Shown here: positions 21,881 to 41,996 of the stretch, piece after piece
Numbering within the stretch: the stretch's first letter is position 1
Layout: each line of letters opens with the position of its first letter
Source: Arenicellales bacterium
GTDB lineage: Bacteria > Pseudomonadota > Gammaproteobacteria > Arenicellales > JAJDZL01
DNA length: 64,000 nt
Assembly (NCBI GenBank): GCA_965116205.1
Contig: OZ220493.1
Span: 2,613,072-2,677,071, forward strand
Reading direction: 5' to 3'
Translations under genes and position numbers: made by a program
The notes under the pieces: model-generated
The model's input: the letters and a program-made list of their open reading frames with translations, nothing else
What the model was told of the DNA's origin: nothing
Database searches by the model: none

Positions 21881-24211
21881 CTAAAACAGCCGCCGCCAGC
21901 CGGCCGTCACTTCAAACTCGGATGGTGCATGCGCATTATGGCCGGGATGGCGCCGATACACGCCTTCTAGCATGAAACCGGCCGTGGCCGACGTTTCATG
22001 CCGCCAGTTGACGGATACATCAATCTGTCGGCCCGTCGGCCTGAGGTCCGCATCCACCTGGGCTCTTAGCACCCTTCCCTCCGGCGTCCGACCCACCGGC
22101 ATAGACATCACCAATGATCCCTTTTCCACGCGCATCGGTTGCGCGATACCCAGTGTGACCCAATTGTTTCTGTCAATCTGACGACTCCCCTGTACCGCAA
22201 AACCGCCGGTCCACACATCACTCATACCAGTGATCACTCCACCACTCACCTGTGGTGTCGATCGACCGATTTCCACCTCAGCCCGCAGACGCCAGTCCGA
22301 CCAGTCGAACACAGTTGTGGCACCGGCCGTAATGGAATGGGTTGCAACACGACCGAACGCCCCGGACGTCTCCGAACCGAGTATCGACGCGCCTTCTCCT
22401 AGCCATGCAATACGAAATGCCAAAGGCAGCGAACGAGTCCTCCAGGACAGCGCCAATCCGGTCATTGGCTGGAATTCTCGAATCGGTGAAGTGGTATACG
22501 CACTCAGTGAAACCCGACTGCTACCTGCGTAGGTAAAACCCATGGCATTTTCCGCCAGAGATAGTGGTCCGATGCCTGAGCCATGGCCGGTTCGCAGAAA
22601 ACCGATCTGCAATTGACCAGCTGACTGATGACCGCCAGCCGCCATGCCGGAAATATCGGTGGCGAATGACAGTATGGACTTCTCATCCGTTCGCGTCTGC
22701 ATACTCCGATCCCATCGGTGCAGACGCTCTGACAGCCGACGGGAGGACCGTTGATGTTGAACAAAAGCGGACAGTTCATGCCAGAAAGGCGCACCCAGTC
22801 GGTCGAACGTCACGATTTCATGATTCATCAGACCGGAACGAAATCCATCGCCGAAGGCCATGCCCAACTTCAGTTGACTACTCTGCAGACTGAAGCCACC
22901 ATCATCAACAGAGTTTCCCAAGGCCAGCGTCTGTTGACCTTGAGGGGAAGTGGCCGCGCCTAAATCCATCAACCCCTGACCATAGGTATCACTGTCCGCA
23001 TAGATGTCGGACTTCTTCGCCGTCGCATACAGTCTCTGCAGCAGTGCGGTGTTGGACAGCTGACCGCGAAAGATGTGCTTCATGACGGCTAGTCCGCCGG
23101 TAACAAAAGGCGCCGCAAATGAAGTACCAAGATAATTACCGTTCGTTGTGCCGCCGAGTACTGCTGCCCTTATATCTCTACCCGGAGCGGCAATACACCA
23201 TTGTGCCGCGATTCCGCAGCGATTCGAAAAATAGGAAATCTCACCCGCCGATGGCCCCTTTGAATCCACCGCAACCACCACGACCGAATGGCTGCGCAAT
23301 TCGGCAATCCTTACCATCAACGCATTACTAAAATGAGGTGAAGATGCAACTATTTTTCCAGAAACACAATTGACAGTGCCAACAGCGCATACGGCTTCAT
23401 TTGCGTTACCGGCTGAGTAAACCAAAATAGTCTTTTCTGAACGGTCGGCCTGCGCTAGAAGCTGGATTCGTGGGGAAATATGTTTTCTCAATTCTGTTTC
23501 ACTGTACTTGGGGTTATCGATCAGTCCACGAGAAGAAAAACTCATATTCAAGAAATCCACCCCATCATTGAAGGCACGGACAATCCTATTTAAAGCACTT
23601 TCAGGACTACTGTAATACACCTCAATGTCCTCATGAGAATACGGCGGAGGAGCTGGTGGTTGTGTCGGATAGGTAATGGTATACATCGTAAAATCAGCCC
23701 CCCAAGCGATGCCACCAAATTTCTTCATCAAGTCCAAACTGGATTGAGGATTCGAAGCCATCACACTGATCACCGCGGTCCCATGTCCAACATCTTTCCT
23801 GCCGTTCGCGAAGTATGCGTTCTTCGAAACGTGTTCGAATACCGTATGGTCCAGATCAATACCATTATCAATCACACCGATTTTGATTCCTTCACCCGGC
23901 CGCAACGTCGGAGTGCGCGCCGGGTCAGATGAACCACCACCTCTGGAGGACTCCAGATTGACATAGGCTTCATCAGCCTTGATCAAACCCAATGCCGGTT
24001 GATTGGTAAATCTCATTTGTGTTCGATAATTCTGCCTGATCGTGTTGCGCTGGGCCGAAGTCAGGGGTTGAAATACCAGCAACGTAGACGGATTCACCTG
24101 GACGGGGGGGGGCACCGGATCGGGGTTGGCTTGACCCACACTGGAACCACCACCGCCTCCGCAGCTGGTGACCAGAGAACTCAGAATAACAATGATAGTA
24201 AATCTGCTCAA
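21881..24211 (-). CDS. Subtilisin-like (S8) serine protease lipoprotein with a C-terminal outer-membrane beta-barrel (autotransporter-like)
   Basis: Lipobox LVTSC followed by GGGGGS. Catalytic D (GVIDNGIDLDH), H (GHGTAVISV) and S (GTSFAAPFVTGG). The C-terminal ~270 aa have alternating hydrophobic pattern and end in ...GWRRLF. TTG start. Confidence 0.85.
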   Translation of the reverse strand: MSRFTIIVILSSLVTSCGGGGGSSVGQANPDPVPPPVQVNPSTLLVFQPLTSAQRNTIRQNYRTQMRFTNQPALGLIKADEAYVNLESSRGGGSSDPARTPTLRPGEGIKIGVIDNGIDLDHTVFEHVSKNAYFANGRKDVGHGTAVISVMASNPQSSLDLMKKFGGIAWGADFTMYTITYPTQPPAPPPYSHEDIEVYYSSPESALNRIVRAFNDGVDFLNMSFSSRGLIDNPKYSETELRKHISPRIQLLAQADRSEKTILVYSAGNANEAVCAVGTVNCVSGKIVASSPHFSNALMVRIAELRSHSVVVVAVDSKGPSAGEISYFSNRCGIAAQWCIAAPGRDIRAAVLGGTTNGNYLGTSFAAPFVTGGLAVMKHIFRGQLSNTALLQRLYATAKKSDIYADSDTYGQGLMDLGAATSPQGQQTLALGNSVDDGGFSLQSSQLKLGMAFGDGFRSGLMNHEIVTFDRLGAPFWHELSAFVQHQRSSRRLSERLHRWDRSMQTRTDEKSILSFATDISGMAAGGHQSAGQLQIGFLRTGHGSGIGPLSLAENAMGFTYAGSSRVSLSAYTTSPIREFQPMTGLALSWRTRSLPLAFRIAWLGEGASILGSETSGAFGRVATHSITAGATTVFDWSDWRLRAEVEIGRSTPQVSGGVITGMSDVWTGGFAVQGSRQIDRNNWVTLGIAQPMRVEKGSLVMSMPVGRTPEGRVLRAQVDADLRPTGRQIDVSVNWRHETSATAGFMLEGVYRRHPGHNAHAPSEFEVTAGWRRLF
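24104..24112 (-). repeat. C9 homopolymer (G9 on the + strand) inside the S8 protease coding region, encoding PPP at codons ~34-36
   Basis: The direct read is gacGGGGGGGGGcacc. On the coding strand it reads GTG CCC CCC CCC GTC. Confidence 0.95.
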
Positions 24212-38032: not shown

Positions 38033-38134
38033 CGGAAAATGTTTATCAGGATTGATTTTTTATCAACATGTTAGCGGTATTAGCCTGAAATTAAGCACAA
38101 AAGAGCCCTCTATTGAGTACAATCAAATAAGTTA

Positions 38135-38278
38135 ATGGAGGTAATCAAGAAAATGTTTAGATACTTATCAAGTCAGTATGTTGCTCATACTGCACGCCAT
38201 GAAGATGGTGCAAATGTGATGTTCGTTCCGACAACGTCCCCATCTCCCCTGGAATTCCTGCGGGGGGGGGGGGGGTGA
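38135..38278 (+). CDS. Hypothetical 47-codon leader ORF ending in the G-tract (RGGGG-stop); an internal ATG at 38153 follows GGAGG
   Basis: ATG 38135 / ATG 38153 (GGAGG at 38137-38141). The frame runs through G14 and stops at TGA 38276-38278, overlapping ATG 38278 of the autotransporter (TGATG). No homology recognised. Confidence 0.2.
   Translation: MEVIKKMFRYLSSQYVAHTARHEDGANVMFVPTTSPSPLEFLRGGGG
38262..38275 (+). repeat. G14 homopolymeric tract abutting the start codon of the autotransporter gene
   Basis: The direct read is ctgcGGGGGGGGGGGGGGtgatgcag. The last G is the first base of GTG 38275. Confidence 0.95.
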
Positions 38279-40944
38279 TGCAGTCTCTTTCCAAGCTGGT
38301 TTCAGCAGTGGCTACGGTTGGACTGCTGGCCCCGTTGCCATTGTCGGCGCAGATGAAGACCTACGTATGCGGTGCGCCGACCGCGGGGACGCCGCCGACC
38401 GTGGTCTGCGATGAAGAAGACTACGCCCCCGGTGAAAATGCCATAGATCTTCCCCAGACCAGCGACCCGTATCAGTGGACCACAGATGGACTGAGTGTGA
38501 CGGTTGCCGAGGGTGTTAAACTGGATGGTATTGATGTGGGCACCAAAACCATTGGTGGTGTTCCAAATAGTCCATTTTCCCGTTTTCGCAGCGGCATTGA
38601 TATAAGAGCGGATAATGTGGCTTCCGGTGACAAGGGCATCACGGTGCAATCCAAGGGGGATATTGATGCCAACACGCCGATCTGGGTCCGATCGGATCAT
38701 CATAACAATATCAAAATTGAAGTGATGGCCGGATTGTTGCAGAGCAATACCGCTGCCATCGGAATCGAAGGACGTAATCAAGCCGGTAGTGACACTACAA
38801 ACCGCGGCAATATCGACGTGACCCTGAGTGGCACAGCAATAGTCCGAGGTCACCCGAAAACATATCGCATTCAAGATTCCAGTCTCACGACCTATATTAC
38901 GCAGGGCATCGACATCCACCGGCATGTGACTAAAGGCGGGGATGTGAACGTGGTACTGAAGGATACGGCTAAGATTGGCGGTGTGGGTGGTGTCACTGAC
39001 TATGGCATCTACATTCGTGACGAATACGCCCATGAAGCCGGCTCTCACTCAGCCATCAAAGTGACCACCGGAGAAGACACATTCATCGGCGAGGAAGCAG
39101 CCGGCGACGATAAGACCGCTGGATATATTAATGAAGAAGGGATTTACGTGAAGATTAAAAACAACCAAAAACGGCCGGGTGCCGGCTCCGAAAGGACGGT
39201 GACCGTCGTCCATGAGGGCCAACTCTATGCGAAGGGCAACGGCATTAAAATTGAACATGAATCTGACGTTACTCCATCCGCAGCTGCCGGTGCCACCGCC
39301 GACATCACCATTGGTAGCAAGGGTGTGGTGCAGGTTTCCGGCGATGAATATGGAATTTATCTCAACACGCCCGATCGGCTGGCGGACGATGACCGCCGTA
39401 AACAGAGTGTCACTATCAAAGGTGGCAAGGTGGTGGGTAAATTGGATGGCGGGGGTGCCATCCACTTGAAAGGCGGTGGCTTAGTCACCATTGGGCGGAA
39501 AGCCGTACTGGTCCCGACTGGTGATGACATCGCTAACTATCGGACCATCAAGGTCACTGACGCCGATACCGTCGGCGCCGGCAAGTCCAATCTGTTGATC
39601 AGACTGAATCAGAATTTGAATGATATCAAGAATATACAGAATGACAAGGACAAAACCGCCTTCCAGCACAGCATGGATGGTAAGAGTTACACCGAGTTGA
39701 CCATGGGAGTGAAACTGACCGTGACCAATGTTTCGCAGGTTCCCTGTGGTTTCTACAATGACTGTATAAGAAAGTCAACCGATGAGGCAACTCCCAAACT
39801 AGTGGACCATGCTAGTGCTAGTGGCGTTTTTTCGCTGACTTTTGAACGTGATGCGAATTTCCAGTCTAAAAAAGAGCTAACCATACCTGACACCGAAGAA
39901 CGAGAGCTATCGAAACGCGGGCGAGTATACGAAACCTTACCGTCGGTCTTATGGGATATGGCTGGCGACATGGACACCTACCGTCCATTGATGATGGGTG
40001 GTGATACTGCTAGTGTTAGTGCATCCAATCTGCGACAGGTTGCGCAAAACGAAATGATGGGTGCACCCGACGATGGCATGCTGTCTGACCGGAGTGCTTG
40101 GGGTCATGTGGAAGCGGGTAGCGGTAAACGTCAGCTGCGAAAGCCCACTACCGGCAATCAGTCGTATGATATTTCTTATGGTGGCTTTGCAGCGGGGATT
40201 GACCTACCTGGTGCCGACGGCATGATGTTTCGAGTTGGACTCCATCATCGGCAGGGCAAGGCCGATGCAACCAATGGTGGTCGGATGAAAATTTCCGGCA
40301 CCGGTGTCGGCGTCGGAATGACCCGTCAGCATGCCCGTGGCATGACGATTGATGGCTGGCTGGGAGCAATCAAGTTTAATGACATTAAGGTCACGTCATC
40401 GGAGATGATCAATGGAGAGAAAATCAATGTCAATGCGAAAACCAAGGCCACCGGTTATACCATTGCCATGGGCATTGCAAACAGTATGGACTTTCGTGGC
40501 CTGATGCTGACGCAACGCGGCGGGGTGACATGGTCATCGGTTTCGATGGATGATTATGCAGTCCCGTATACGATGACAGTATCCGGCACCGCTGAACAGA
40601 TGCAGGACAAAGTGGCCACGAAAAACAGTTCCGGGATAACCAGCCAATATAGTGTGCTGCTTGAGCAGCTGACTGGGCAGCAGACAGCAAACTGTTGCCG
40701 GCTGTTCGGTTCGTTGGACATTGAGCATGATTTCAGTACCGAACGTGAGGTGACGGTCACCAATGATGACCTGTCAACCACGAGCAAATCAGAAGTAAAT
40801 CCAACGAAAATACGGTTGGGAATCGGTGGTTCGACGAGTTGGAATGCAGGTCAGTCGGTTATTTCAGCAGCAATCTATCATACCGCTTCGGGCAGTGGCA
40901 ACAAAGTCACCAGTGGACAAATTGCACTGTCCATCAGGTTCTAG
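38275..40944 (+). CDS. Autotransporter (type Va) outer membrane protein with a beta-helix-like passenger of unknown function
   Basis: Signal peptide MMQSLSKLVSAVATVGLLAPLPLSA-Q. Gly/Ile-rich repetitive passenger. Linker ...RVYETLPSVLWDM. The C-terminal ~280-aa barrel ends ...IALSIRF. Confidence 0.82.
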   Translation: MMQSLSKLVSAVATVGLLAPLPLSAQMKTYVCGAPTAGTPPTVVCDEEDYAPGENAIDLPQTSDPYQWTTDGLSVTVAEGVKLDGIDVGTKTIGGVPNSPFSRFRSGIDIRADNVASGDKGITVQSKGDIDANTPIWVRSDHHNNIKIEVMAGLLQSNTAAIGIEGRNQAGSDTTNRGNIDVTLSGTAIVRGHPKTYRIQDSSLTTYITQGIDIHRHVTKGGDVNVVLKDTAKIGGVGGVTDYGIYIRDEYAHEAGSHSAIKVTTGEDTFIGEEAAGDDKTAGYINEEGIYVKIKNNQKRPGAGSERTVTVVHEGQLYAKGNGIKIEHESDVTPSAAAGATADITIGSKGVVQVSGDEYGIYLNTPDRLADDDRRKQSVTIKGGKVVGKLDGGGAIHLKGGGLVTIGRKAVLVPTGDDIANYRTIKVTDADTVGAGKSNLLIRLNQNLNDIKNIQNDKDKTAFQHSMDGKSYTELTMGVKLTVTNVSQVPCGFYNDCIRKSTDEATPKLVDHASASGVFSLTFERDANFQSKKELTIPDTEERELSKRGRVYETLPSVLWDMAGDMDTYRPLMMGGDTASVSASNLRQVAQNEMMGAPDDGMLSDRSAWGHVEAGSGKRQLRKPTTGNQSYDISYGGFAAGIDLPGADGMMFRVGLHHRQGKADATNGGRMKISGTGVGVGMTRQHARGMTIDGWLGAIKFNDIKVTSSEMINGEKINVNAKTKATGYTIAMGIANSMDFRGLMLTQRGGVTWSSVSMDDYAVPYTMTVSGTAEQMQDKVATKNSSGITSQYSVLLEQLTGQQTANCCRLFGSLDIEHDFSTEREVTVTNDDLSTTSKSEVNPTKIRLGIGGSTSWNAGQSVISAAIYHTASGSGNKVTSGQIALSIRF

Positions 40945-41201
40945 TTGGCAACGATATCGCAGTTGGTAAAGATCTGACGTCAATCAACATATTTATTGGT
41001 AACTAAGGCAGGTCCGTCCATCGAATGAGGGATTGTGAAAACCTTTCCATAGGCAGGCAGCGTTTATCATTTCATCAATTCTAACTTTTCGGTGTCGTAC
41101 GATCATTTTGCCACTGACGAGATGCTCATTTTATAGAGAGCTGTAATACATGCCCGTGTCATCCATCATCTTCGTTAATTGGTAAAATACACAGTAAAGA
41201 A

Positions 41202-41700
41202 ACGAAGTGGAATGTATTCGGTCTGTCCGCCATTGATCTAGCCACTGCCTTCCAAGTGTCGAATCAGACTATAGCTGACATCCGGCAGTGCTGGGACGAG
41301 CATGGTGAAGCCGGATTTTATGATGCGAGGCACATAAAATTACCTGTTTAGCAGCGTAGTGAAATTAGTCCTGAATTAACACAACAGACGACTGAAATGC
41401 GAGCTGCCGGCATCAGTAAGCAGGTCTGCGCTAAAAGTCTTGGCATTACCATAGGCACATATTCGTAAAGGTTGCATTGTCAACCTGAGCATTCCAGAAG
41501 CAGAAACTGTGGAGCCCCTACCGAAGGATGCGCAGAAATTTCAACAAACCATTCTTGAATGCGTCAGCGATCACACCGAATCGTGATACTGGGTGATGAT
41601 CTGTACCGGTGAAGCGTTCTGTACTCGCTCAGAACAGAAGTGCGATTTCAAGTTTGACGAGTCGACAACTTTCGGCTGAGAGAAAGCAGCATGTTGAATA
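41202..41700 (+). pseudogene. Decayed N-terminal (double HTH) fragment of a transposase-like gene, possibly IS630/Tc1-like
   Basis: One frame reads ...FGLSAIDLATAFQVSNQTIADIRQCWDEHGEAGFYDARHIKLPV*QRSEISPELTQQTTEMRAAGISKQVCAKSLGITIGTYS*, with in-frame stops at 41349 and 41466. No DDE domain follows. No ORF of 60 aa or more occurs across 40945-41996. Confidence 0.35.
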
Positions 41701-41996
41701 AACTGCTATCGGAGCAATCAATCGAAGGACAGTGCTACCATCGTCAAATACTTTTTTGAATTGATTAGATGAATTGAACGTGTCTCTGACTCATGATGTG
41801 ATGCTATGTTCTTCATGACGCAGATACGCATGAGCAATGCAGAAATCTAACCATTAGTACAAAAGTGACTCAGTGATTTCTTTGAATAGCGCTATATTTT
41901 GACTTCTAACTCTCACCATAATTCAATACTAAAACCAAACAACATGTCCTGCTTTTCATAGGTGTAGGAAAATAGGGTTCTGAACTAGACTAGACC

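What the first reader, a model, noticed from the sequence alone, without database searches (positions are those of the whole stretch)
38135..38280. G14 tract at a TGATG stop-start junction: leader ORF coupled to the autotransporter gene, with a tract-length-dependent outcome
Fourteen consecutive G (38262-38275) end in the GTG/ATG start of the 889-aa autotransporter. An upstream ORF (ATG 38135, or ATG 38153 preceded by GGAGG) reads through the tract as RGGGG and stops at TGA 38276-38278, overlapping ATG 38278 by one base. This is the classic translational-coupling arrangement. By direct frame counting, 15 G (or 12 G) would fuse the leader in-frame to the autotransporter and bury its signal peptide behind ~47 extra residues. 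With 13 G the leader would read across the start in the wrong frame until about 38409. The tract could therefore toggle coupled, fused and occluded states. This design differs from the usual intragenic or promoter-spacer repeats. Alternatively the tract may act simply as a variable Shine-Dalgarno or promoter element.
Basis: partly seen in the sequence, partly recalled or inferred. Interest (0 to 1): 0.75.

Follow-up and report, generated by a model that had tools for sequence, protein, structure and literature searches.

The report
Poly-G switch on an autotransporter gene
A run of 14 G's lies between a short conserved leader reading frame and the signal peptide of an outer-membrane autotransporter gene, and is most likely a slippage-prone on/off switch of a well-known kind, found here in a small gene family of uncultured marine Arenicellales-like bacteria.

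Summary
G14 lies at 38262-38275. TGA 38276-78 overlaps ATG 38278-80. The leader ORF starts at ATG 38153, preceded by GGAGG. G12 or G15 fuses the leader to the 888-aa autotransporter.

Ten related loci carry the same cassette: Shine-Dalgarno (SD) site, leader ATG, 27-37 leader codons, poly-G, signal peptide, autotransporter. Five lie in one Arenicellales MAG and four on co-occurring contigs. Tracts are G10, 10, 11, 11, 13, 14, 14, 16, plus one decayed tract seen in two strains. All three frame relations occur.

The fused frame is not an artefact. It is the assembled state in L002 and L006. It is also the state of the decayed, locked allele, whose 928-aa gene is intact. Four more distant family members have no ATG after the tract, so they can make a signal-peptide-bearing protein only from the leader start.

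I therefore read this as classical repeat-mediated translational phase variation. The leader is an N-terminal extension and the fused frame is ON. As assembled, the window copy is out of frame.

A stop overlapping an ATG, T(G/A)ATG, follows the tract in all 8 loci of the window's clade and in no outgroup member. A coupled third state therefore remains possible but untested. Homopolymer length in long-read assemblies is uncertain by about one base.

The parts
38085..38152 (+). Upstream region shared with the paralogous cassettes (putative promoter and 5' UTR), including the SD GGAGG at 38137-38141
   Evidence: The alignment of 8 loci shows homology starting about 70-90 nt upstream of the leader ATG. 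SD/anti-SD duplex energy is -10.7 kcal/mol against a window baseline median of -2.7. The consensus scan called no sigma-70 promoter here.
38153..38278 (+). Leader ORF: 37 conserved codons, then the Gly codons of the tract, then TGA as assembled (41 aa, MFRYLSSQYVAHTARHEDGANVMFVPTTSPSPLEFLRGGGG)
   Evidence: Homologous leaders occur in L001-L008 and L130. It is the only frame without stops in all 8 clade loci. Pairwise dN/dS is mostly 0.3-0.8. The source genome annotates it as a 41-aa protein, P0010.
38237..38250 (+). Pyrimidine-rich stretch (TCCCCATCTCCCCT) predicted to pair with the G tract in the mRNA
   Evidence: A hairpin is predicted in most of the 8 loci, with region energies of -15.6 to -28.6 kcal/mol, but z-scores are not significant. 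Pyrimidine runs of this length are rare in the same genes (background fraction 0-0.02 in the clade loci). Its function is inferred only.
38262..38275 (+). G14 homopolymer: the hypermutable repeat (Gly run in the leader frame)
   Evidence: Homologous tracts of G10-G16 sit at the same position in 9 other loci.
38276..38280 (+). TGATG: leader stop (38276-78) overlapping the autotransporter ATG (38278-80)
   Evidence: T(G/A)ATG is present directly after the tract in 8 of 8 clade loci. It is absent from L129 and L130 (DNA), and P0012 and P0013 have no Met after the Gly run.
38278..38355 (+). Sec-type signal peptide region (MQSLSKLVSAVATVGLLAPLPLSAQ)
   Evidence: Read from the sequence and conserved among paralogs. 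No signal-peptide predictor was available, so the cleavage site is not established.
38278..40944 (+). Autotransporter gene (888 aa from ATG 38278), with the beta-barrel domain at about 40099-40854
   Evidence: Pfam PF03797, E = 3e-17, residues 608-859. The protein ends in ...LSIRF. It is 100% identical to database protein P0001.

Best explanation
The G14 tract is the slippage-prone repeat of a contingency (phase-variable) locus. The gene encodes a long pre-protein: an SD and ATG 38153, a roughly 37-residue conserved N-terminal extension, a Gly run encoded by the poly-G, a Sec signal peptide, a passenger and a beta-barrel. Slipped-strand mispairing during replication adds or removes G's. At G12 or G15 the whole pre-protein is read from the well-placed upstream start (ON). 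At other lengths the upstream ribosomes either stop at TGA 38276 (G14, as assembled) or run across the signal-peptide region out of frame (G13 or G16). The gene is then off, or at most weakly or alternatively expressed from ATG 38278. At least two copies in this genome, and five in a related MAG, carry the same device, so a population would display different combinations of these surface proteins. Shown here: the anatomy, the conservation, the tract-length differences between near-identical copies, and the existence of fused alleles. Inferred: that switching occurs, that fused is ON, and the expression level of the G14 state.
For: (1) The same cassette occurs in 10 loci, with tracts of G10, 10, 11, 11, 13, 14, 14, 16 and one interrupted tract seen in two strains. 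(2) Tract length changes faster than the flanks. L001 and L007 are 174/180 identical upstream, yet carry G13 and G10. L001 and L002 are 169/180 identical, with G13 and G14. (3) All three frame relations occur among assemblies. The called N-termini of family proteins are correspondingly heterogeneous: fused in P0005, P0006, P0008, P0012 and P0013; starting at the signal peptide in P0001, P0003, P0004 and P0007; truncated in P0002, P0011 and P0014. (4) The fused state looks functional. The interrupted, non-slippery tract GGGAAAGGGGG of L003/L005 is locked in the fused frame with an intact 928-aa gene that has a PF03797 hit. L129 and L130 have no ATG after the tract, and P0012 and P0013 have no Met after the Gly run, so only the leader start can give them a signal-peptide-bearing protein. 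(5) Every leader start has a strong SD (-6.5 to -11.4 kcal/mol against a baseline median of -2.7). (6) This matches published translational phase variation: NalP and MspA poly-C (PMC3723659), Chlamydia PmpG paralogs with variable poly-G of 8-19 bp (PMC6740158), and the general rule in PMC4235727.
Against: No read-level or clonal data were available, so switching itself is not shown. Only one locked allele supports fused = ON within the window's clade. The N-terminal extension does not match the known extended signal peptide family (no Pfam hit at E <= 1). A 68-residue pre-sequence would be unusually long. In the window's clade an ATG directly follows the tract in 8 of 8 loci, at the exact start of a canonical signal-peptide n-region, with strong SD-like complementarity from the G run (-10.7 to -14.7 kcal/mol). 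Non-fused states may therefore not be OFF. Leader dN/dS (mostly 0.3-0.8, two close pairs above 1) rests on only about 26 synonymous sites.
Confidence: 0.6

Rival explanations
1. A true three-state switch, in a revised form of the reader's model. The fused frame makes a long pre-protein. In the stop-overlap frame (G14 here), ribosomes finishing the leader at UGA reinitiate at the overlapping AUG and make the autotransporter with its own signal peptide (coupled ON, perhaps at a different level). In the read-across frame, leader ribosomes occlude the AUG (OFF). A hairpin between the pyrimidine run and the G tract keeps the internal start dependent on leader translation.
For: T(G/A)ATG follows the tract in 8 of 8 clade loci despite three different junction sequences: G(n)TGATG, G(n)CAATGATG and G(n)CAATAATG. 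The ATG sits exactly at the start of the signal-peptide n-region. The G run is a strong SD mimic. The predicted hairpin pairs the G run in most loci, and pyrimidine runs of that length are rare elsewhere in these genes. Coupling by termination-reinitiation at TGATG overlaps is established in bacteria (PMC6728339). Three of seven variable clade loci are assembled in this state.
Against: The stop overlap follows almost automatically from an ATG, GTG or ATA codon preceding ATG. Only one substitution (ATG to ATA) is informative, so conservation is weak evidence. Outgroup members lack the internal ATG. Hairpin z-scores are not significant. There are no expression data.
Confidence: 0.25
2. The tract acts mainly at the RNA level, as an SD mimic or structural element for independent initiation at ATG 38278. 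Its length would tune hairpin strength or pairing with a C/U-rich partner rather than the reading frame.
For: There is strong anti-SD complementarity and a cis pyrimidine stretch. [quoted passage not shown]
Against: The 3' end of the tract is fixed 2-5 nt from the ATG, so SD spacing does not change with length. Outgroup members have the tract but no downstream ATG. The conserved, SD-equipped and stop-free leader frame is unexplained by this model.
Confidence: 0.07
3. There is no switch. The out-of-frame state is a homopolymer-length error of a long-read assembly (the true allele being in frame), or the gene is a decaying pseudogene.
For: The sources are multi-megabase or hifiasm-style contigs, and long homopolymers are the main error mode of such data (my own knowledge). 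L006 and L008 carry further frame disruptions elsewhere.
Against: Tracts differ by up to 3-6 bases between copies, which is more than a one-base error. The 888-aa ORF is intact. The tract is retained at G10 or longer in 9 of 10 loci rather than decaying. The passenger dN/dS of about 0.3-0.6 indicates selection.
Confidence: 0.08

Closest known systems
Chlamydia PmpG-group polymorphic membrane proteins (autotransporters with poly-G/C tracts)
   Same: Both are expanded paralogous families of type V autotransporters. Each copy carries a poly-G tract (8-19 bp) of variable length in the coding region. Frameshifted and in-frame copies intermingle, and this is interpreted as on/off phase variation (PMC6740158).
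   Different: In most Pmp copies the tract lies deep in the passenger region, whereas here it is always between an N-terminal extension and the signal peptide. The proteins and hosts are unrelated. No internal restart codon is described for the Pmps.
Neisseria meningitidis NalP and MspA (poly-C); N. gonorrhoeae and N. meningitidis pilC (poly-G in the signal-peptide-coding region)
   Same: A homopolymer in the 5' coding region of a secreted or outer-membrane protein gives translational ON/OFF switching (PMC3723659, PMC4235727; pilC is from my own knowledge).
   Different: Those tracts are typically shorter and lie inside or after the signal peptide (my own knowledge). They have no long conserved pre-signal leader and no stop/start overlap after the tract.
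Haemophilus influenzae lic2A and lic1: several initiation codons around a repeat tract
   Same: These are exceptions to the one-ON, two-OFF rule. More than one start codon lets different repeat numbers give different expression levels (PMC4235727, citing Dixon et al. 2007).
   Different: There the alternative starts lie upstream of a tetranucleotide repeat in different frames. Here the second start lies immediately downstream of a homopolymer and overlaps the stop of the upstream frame.
Translational coupling at TGATG/ATGA overlaps
   Same: In the G14 state the leader stop and the autotransporter start overlap by one base, the arrangement shown to couple translation by termination-reinitiation (PMC6728339).
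   Different: Ordinary overlaps are fixed. Here the overlap exists in only one of three tract-length classes. Coupling was not tested.
Extended signal peptide region (ESPR, Pfam PF13018) of autotransporters
   Same: Both are N-terminal extensions preceding a classical signal peptide of an autotransporter.
   Different: There is no sequence match. The extension here is about 41 residues against about 25 in ESPR (my own knowledge), is not hydrophobic, and is separated from the signal peptide by a Gly run.
H. pylori tlpB G-repeat targeted by the RepG sRNA
   Same: Both have a variable G-repeat in an mRNA 5' region that pairs with a C/U-rich RNA (PMC8295292).
   Different: There the partner is a trans-acting sRNA and the repeat is untranslated. 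Here the candidate partner is a cis stretch inside the leader ORF, and the pairing is only predicted.

Membership tests
Simple-sequence-repeat contingency locus (translational phase variation) | Homopolymeric G/C tract long enough to be hypermutable (about 7-9 or more) | tested here: met
   G14 at 38262-38275. Relatives carry G10-G16.
Simple-sequence-repeat contingency locus (translational phase variation) | Tract placed so that length changes alter the reading frame of a translated ORF | tested here: met
   In-silico tract series: fused at G12 and G15, stop at G14, read-across at G13 and G16. The leader has an SD, an ATG and an open frame in all loci.
Simple-sequence-repeat contingency locus (translational phase variation) | Tract length polymorphic between closely related sequences | tested here: met
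   L001 and L007 have 96.7% identical flanks but G13 and G10. L001 and L002 are 94% identical, with G13 and G14. These are paralogs or strains, not one clone.
Simple-sequence-repeat contingency locus (translational phase variation) | Reversible high-frequency switching of expression within a clonal population | not testable with these tools
   No reads, isolates or expression data were available.
Type Va (classical) autotransporter | C-terminal beta-barrel translocator domain | tested here: met
   PF03797, E = 3e-17, residues 608-859, above the gathering score. The C-terminal residue is Phe.
Type Va (classical) autotransporter | N-terminal Sec signal peptide | tested here: inconclusive
   An n-region and hydrophobic h-region are visible and conserved (MQSLSKLVSAVATVGLLAPLPL; relatives end in ..LQAHA). 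No predictor was available.
Type Va (classical) autotransporter | Passenger domain related to known passengers | tested here: not met
   No hit in NCBIfam or in PDB sequences. Only about 13 close family members were found among 1.8-5.8 billion proteins. This does not affect the membership given by the barrel domain.
Translationally coupled gene pair (termination-reinitiation) | Stop and start codons overlap (TGATG or ATGA) | tested here: met
   TGA 38276-78 overlaps ATG 38278-80 in the assembled G14 state.
Translationally coupled gene pair (termination-reinitiation) | Downstream translation depends on upstream translation | not testable with these tools
   The only support is a predicted hairpin that masks the G run (not significant).
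ESPR extended signal peptide (PF13018) | Sequence match to the ESPR profile | tested here: not met
   No Pfam hit for the leader or for the fused N-termini at E <= 1.

The most novel reading that the evidence does not exclude
In the window's clade the poly-G tract toggles three defined translational states of one surface-protein gene. One state is a long pre-protein read from the leader start. A second is a coupled state, in which the leader terminates at a stop overlapping the autotransporter ATG and ribosomes reinitiate to make the protein with its native signal peptide. The third is an occluded OFF state. A cis pyrimidine/G-run hairpin would make the internal start dependent on leader translation. 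This would be a repeat-controlled switch between fusion, coupling and occlusion, which I did not find described in the phase-variation papers I read.
Probability: 0.25. Interest if true: 0.65.

Novelty: new variant of a known kind. Interest (0 to 1): 0.45.

Why it matters
The finding extends homopolymer-driven phase variation of autotransporters beyond the classical animal pathogens. The closest relatives belong to uncultured Arenicellales, an order that includes candidate families named for sponges. This suggests that stochastic surface-protein variation is also used in such associations. The family offers a compact test case with 2-5 copies per genome. It could show whether a long N-terminal extension ahead of a signal peptide is functional. 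It could also show whether a repeat tract placed exactly at a stop/start overlap gives more than two expression states. For annotation, it explains why the gene models of this family have inconsistent N-termini: 41-aa orphan ORFs, truncated starts and fused forms.

Tried and rejected
- **Promoter-spacer role:** rejected. The tract is about 110 nt downstream of the leader start and 2 nt from the ATG, and no sigma-70-like site spans it.
- **Known RNA element:** Rfam gave only a chance-level hit on the opposite strand.
- **ESPR or any Pfam/NCBIfam family for the leader or fused N-terminus:** none found.
- **Solved-structure relatives of the passenger:** none found.
- **Statistical support for the hairpin:** z-scores against dinucleotide shuffles were not significant. 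Only the rarity of the pyrimidine run gives mild support.
- **JGI metagenomes:** the peptide-pattern scan found no relative. The DNA pattern GAATTYCTGNNG9 returned 120 unrelated stretches, none encoding the leader or the autotransporter by tblastn.
- **Leader-profile search:** it returned only the window's own 41-aa ORF.
- **Exact-protein look-ups:** they failed for P0001, P0002, P0012, P0013 and P0014. As a result the second paralog in the window's own genome, and two fused outgroup members, could not be examined at DNA level.
- **Organism identity:** the window's genome is not in the species-representative genome collection. Its assignment to Arenicellales is inferred only from its closest relatives.
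- **Mis-count corrected:** I first mis-counted the L130 fusing length as G12. The script gives G10 or G13.
Full report
**1. Observation**

The sequence is as described. G14 occupies 38262-38275 and is followed by TGATG, with TGA at 38276-78 and ATG at 38278-80. It is the longest homopolymer in the window. The next is a G9, and nothing else exceeds 7. With 24.5% G, about 2e-4 such runs are expected by chance in 64 kb (my arithmetic).

An ORF from ATG 38135 or 38153 reads through the tract and stops at TGA 38276-78. The 888/889-aa ORF that follows carries a C-terminal autotransporter beta-domain (PF03797, E = 3e-17). The flanking genes are rnc and era upstream and recO downstream. The cassette has 51-57% G+C against 43-45% in the flanks.

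- G12 or G15 fuses leader and autotransporter (929 or 930 aa).
- G13 or G16 reads across the start, ending at TGA 38412-14 in window coordinates.
- G14 stops 3 nt after the tract.

**2. Relatives**

The protein family is very small.
- A word-indexed search of 5.8 billion proteins found 8 members.
- An exhaustive profile search of 1.84 billion representatives added five more. Beyond these, hits matched mainly the C-terminal barrel region.

Some members could be examined at DNA level.
- Five copies lie in one 3.43-Mb genome titled 'MAG: Arenicellales bacterium' (OZ219781.1, the same length as contig ctg6937c of sample ERZ24894574). These are L001-L004 and L130.
- Four copies lie on other contigs of that sample: L005-L008.
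- One copy lies on a 3.8-Mb contig of another sample: L129.

The window's own genome (a 3.33-Mb contig) holds a second copy, P0002, whose DNA I could not reach.

**3. A conserved cassette**

Every locus has the same order of parts: an SD, an ATG, a leader of 27-37 codons, a poly-G tract, a signal peptide and the autotransporter.

In the eight loci of the window's clade, and in L130, the leader peptide is recognisably homologous. The consensus is MFRxSTCRYIAHTAHHEDGSNVMSVPxxSxSSLEFLRGGGG, and L130 reads MYRVASCQHVAEPAVHEAGAAAMTVQAVSPEFLGGGG.

Several observations show that the leader is translated.
- It is the only frame free of stops in all eight clade loci.
- It tolerates only in-frame indels.
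- Its start has strong anti-SD complementarity, -6.5 to -11.4 kcal/mol against a window baseline median of -2.7.
- The source annotation calls it as a 41-aa protein.

Leader dN/dS is mostly 0.3-0.8, based on few sites. Against the window copy, its synonymous divergence (dS about 0.33-0.46 for most pairs) is lower than that of the passenger (about 0.95). This hints at an added nucleotide-level constraint or at gene conversion. In L129 the leader has a different sequence but the same layout.

**4. Tract behaviour**

| Locus | Tract | Frame state as assembled |
|---|---|---|
| Window | G14 | stop overlap |
| L001 | G13 | read-across |
| L002 | G14 | fused |
| L004 | G11 | stop overlap |
| L006 | G16 | fused |
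| L007 | G10 | read-across |
| L008 | G14 | stop overlap |
| L129 | G10 | read-across |
| L130 | G11 | read-across |
| L003 / L005 | GGGAAAGGGGG (interrupted) | fused |

Tract length differs between copies whose flanks are almost identical. L001 and L007 are 174/180 identical but carry G13 and G10. L001 and L002 are 169/180 identical, with G13 and G14. The interrupted tract is the same in two strains whose proteins are 99.8% identical. This is the expected signature of a hypermutable repeat, although it compares paralogs and strains rather than cells of one clone.

**5. Which state is ON?**

The comparative data argue otherwise.
- Fused is the assembled state of L002 and L006.
- The only allele whose tract has decayed by three substitutions, and so can no longer slip, is locked in the fused frame. 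It keeps an intact 928-aa gene with a barrel domain.
- L129 and L130 have no ATG after the tract. P0012 (..FWGGGRVTHSFAQLF..) and P0013 (..KLGGGHSLSQLIS..) have no Met after the Gly run, and both are fused as called. In these four members a signal-peptide-bearing protein can be made only from the leader start.

The most economical reading is that the leader is an N-terminal extension of the pre-protein, the tract is intragenic, and the in-frame length is ON. This is ordinary translational phase variation, with one ON class and two other classes (PMC4235727). Known examples are the meningococcal autotransporters NalP and MspA (PMC3723659) and, closest in logic, the paralogous Chlamydia PmpG autotransporters, which carry poly-G tracts of 8-19 bp and intermingled frameshifted copies (PMC6740158).

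The extension is not the known ESPR motif.

**6. What remains unusual**

In the window's clade, but not in the outgroup members, an ATG follows the tract within 5 nt in 8 of 8 loci. It sits exactly at the start of the signal-peptide n-region, always in a T(G/A)ATG context. One of the two non-fused frames therefore ends in a stop overlapping that ATG.

The G run gives this ATG very strong SD-like complementarity, -10.7 to -14.7 kcal/mol. A pyrimidine-rich stretch 10-25 nt upstream of the tract (window 38237-38250) is predicted to pair with the G run in most of the eight loci. Pyrimidine runs of that length are rare elsewhere in these genes.

Together these features would fit termination-reinitiation coupling in the G14 state (PMC6728339). 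The evidence is nevertheless weak.
- The stop overlap follows almost automatically from ATG, GTG or ATA preceding ATG.
- Only one informative substitution exists.
- The fold z-scores are not significant.

I therefore keep the three-state switch as a rival at about 0.25.

**7. Caveats**

All sources appear to be long-read assemblies, in which long homopolymers are error-prone. The state of any single locus, including G14 here, is uncertain by about one base. L006 and L008 carry further frame breaks.

RNA-polymerase or ribosome slippage on a 14-G run could also blur the states (my own knowledge, untested here).

The organism is inferred to be an Arenicellales relative only from the family's distribution.

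**8. Verdict**

The locus is a real and non-random feature. It is a poly-G contingency switch at the 5' end of a multi-copy autotransporter family, a known kind of system with a local twist: a long conserved pre-signal leader and a restart codon overlapping the leader stop. The functional meaning of that twist is open. Interest is moderate.

Noticed in passing
window 24104-24112 (ORF 21881-24211, minus strand): The second-longest homopolymer in the window is a G9 (C9 on the coding strand). It lies at about codons 34-36 (PVPPPV) of a 776-aa lipoprotein-like S8 serine protease that hits autotransporter serine-peptidase models (EprS, fusolisin). It is in frame as assembled and may be a second phase-variable surface-protein gene.
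   Followed up: partly
window 38200-40900 versus flanks: The autotransporter cassette has 51-57% G+C, against 43-45% for rnc-era and recO. It interrupts the otherwise common rnc-era-recO neighbourhood, which suggests insertion of a mobile or recombining cassette.
   Followed up: partly
window 40945-41996: About 1 kb between the autotransporter stop and recO holds only short ORFs (30-55 aa). Its content was not identified.
   Followed up: no
L001 (3874-3995) versus L007 (5880-5998); L004, L007 and L008 flanks: The leaders of L001 and L007 differ at 1 of 111 nt although the genes sit at different chromosomal positions. L004, L007 and L008 occupy the same position (ctaG-cox3-...-pseudouridine synthase | autotransporter | pyrD) yet differ by 20-40% in protein sequence. 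This suggests gene conversion or cassette exchange among the paralogs.
   Followed up: partly
L006 2844-5686 and 7626; L008 8500-10121: The L006 copy is flanked by IS110- and DDE-type transposase genes and is split into 542 + 377 aa. The L008 copy has an aberrant C-terminus, and the neighbouring pyrD is split. These are either decaying copies or long-read indel errors.
   Followed up: no
window 38250-38255 and the same position in relatives: A GAATTC (or GAATTT) palindrome forms the predicted loop between the pyrimidine run and the G tract. It encodes the conserved E-F of the leader in most loci. Its significance is unknown.
   Followed up: no
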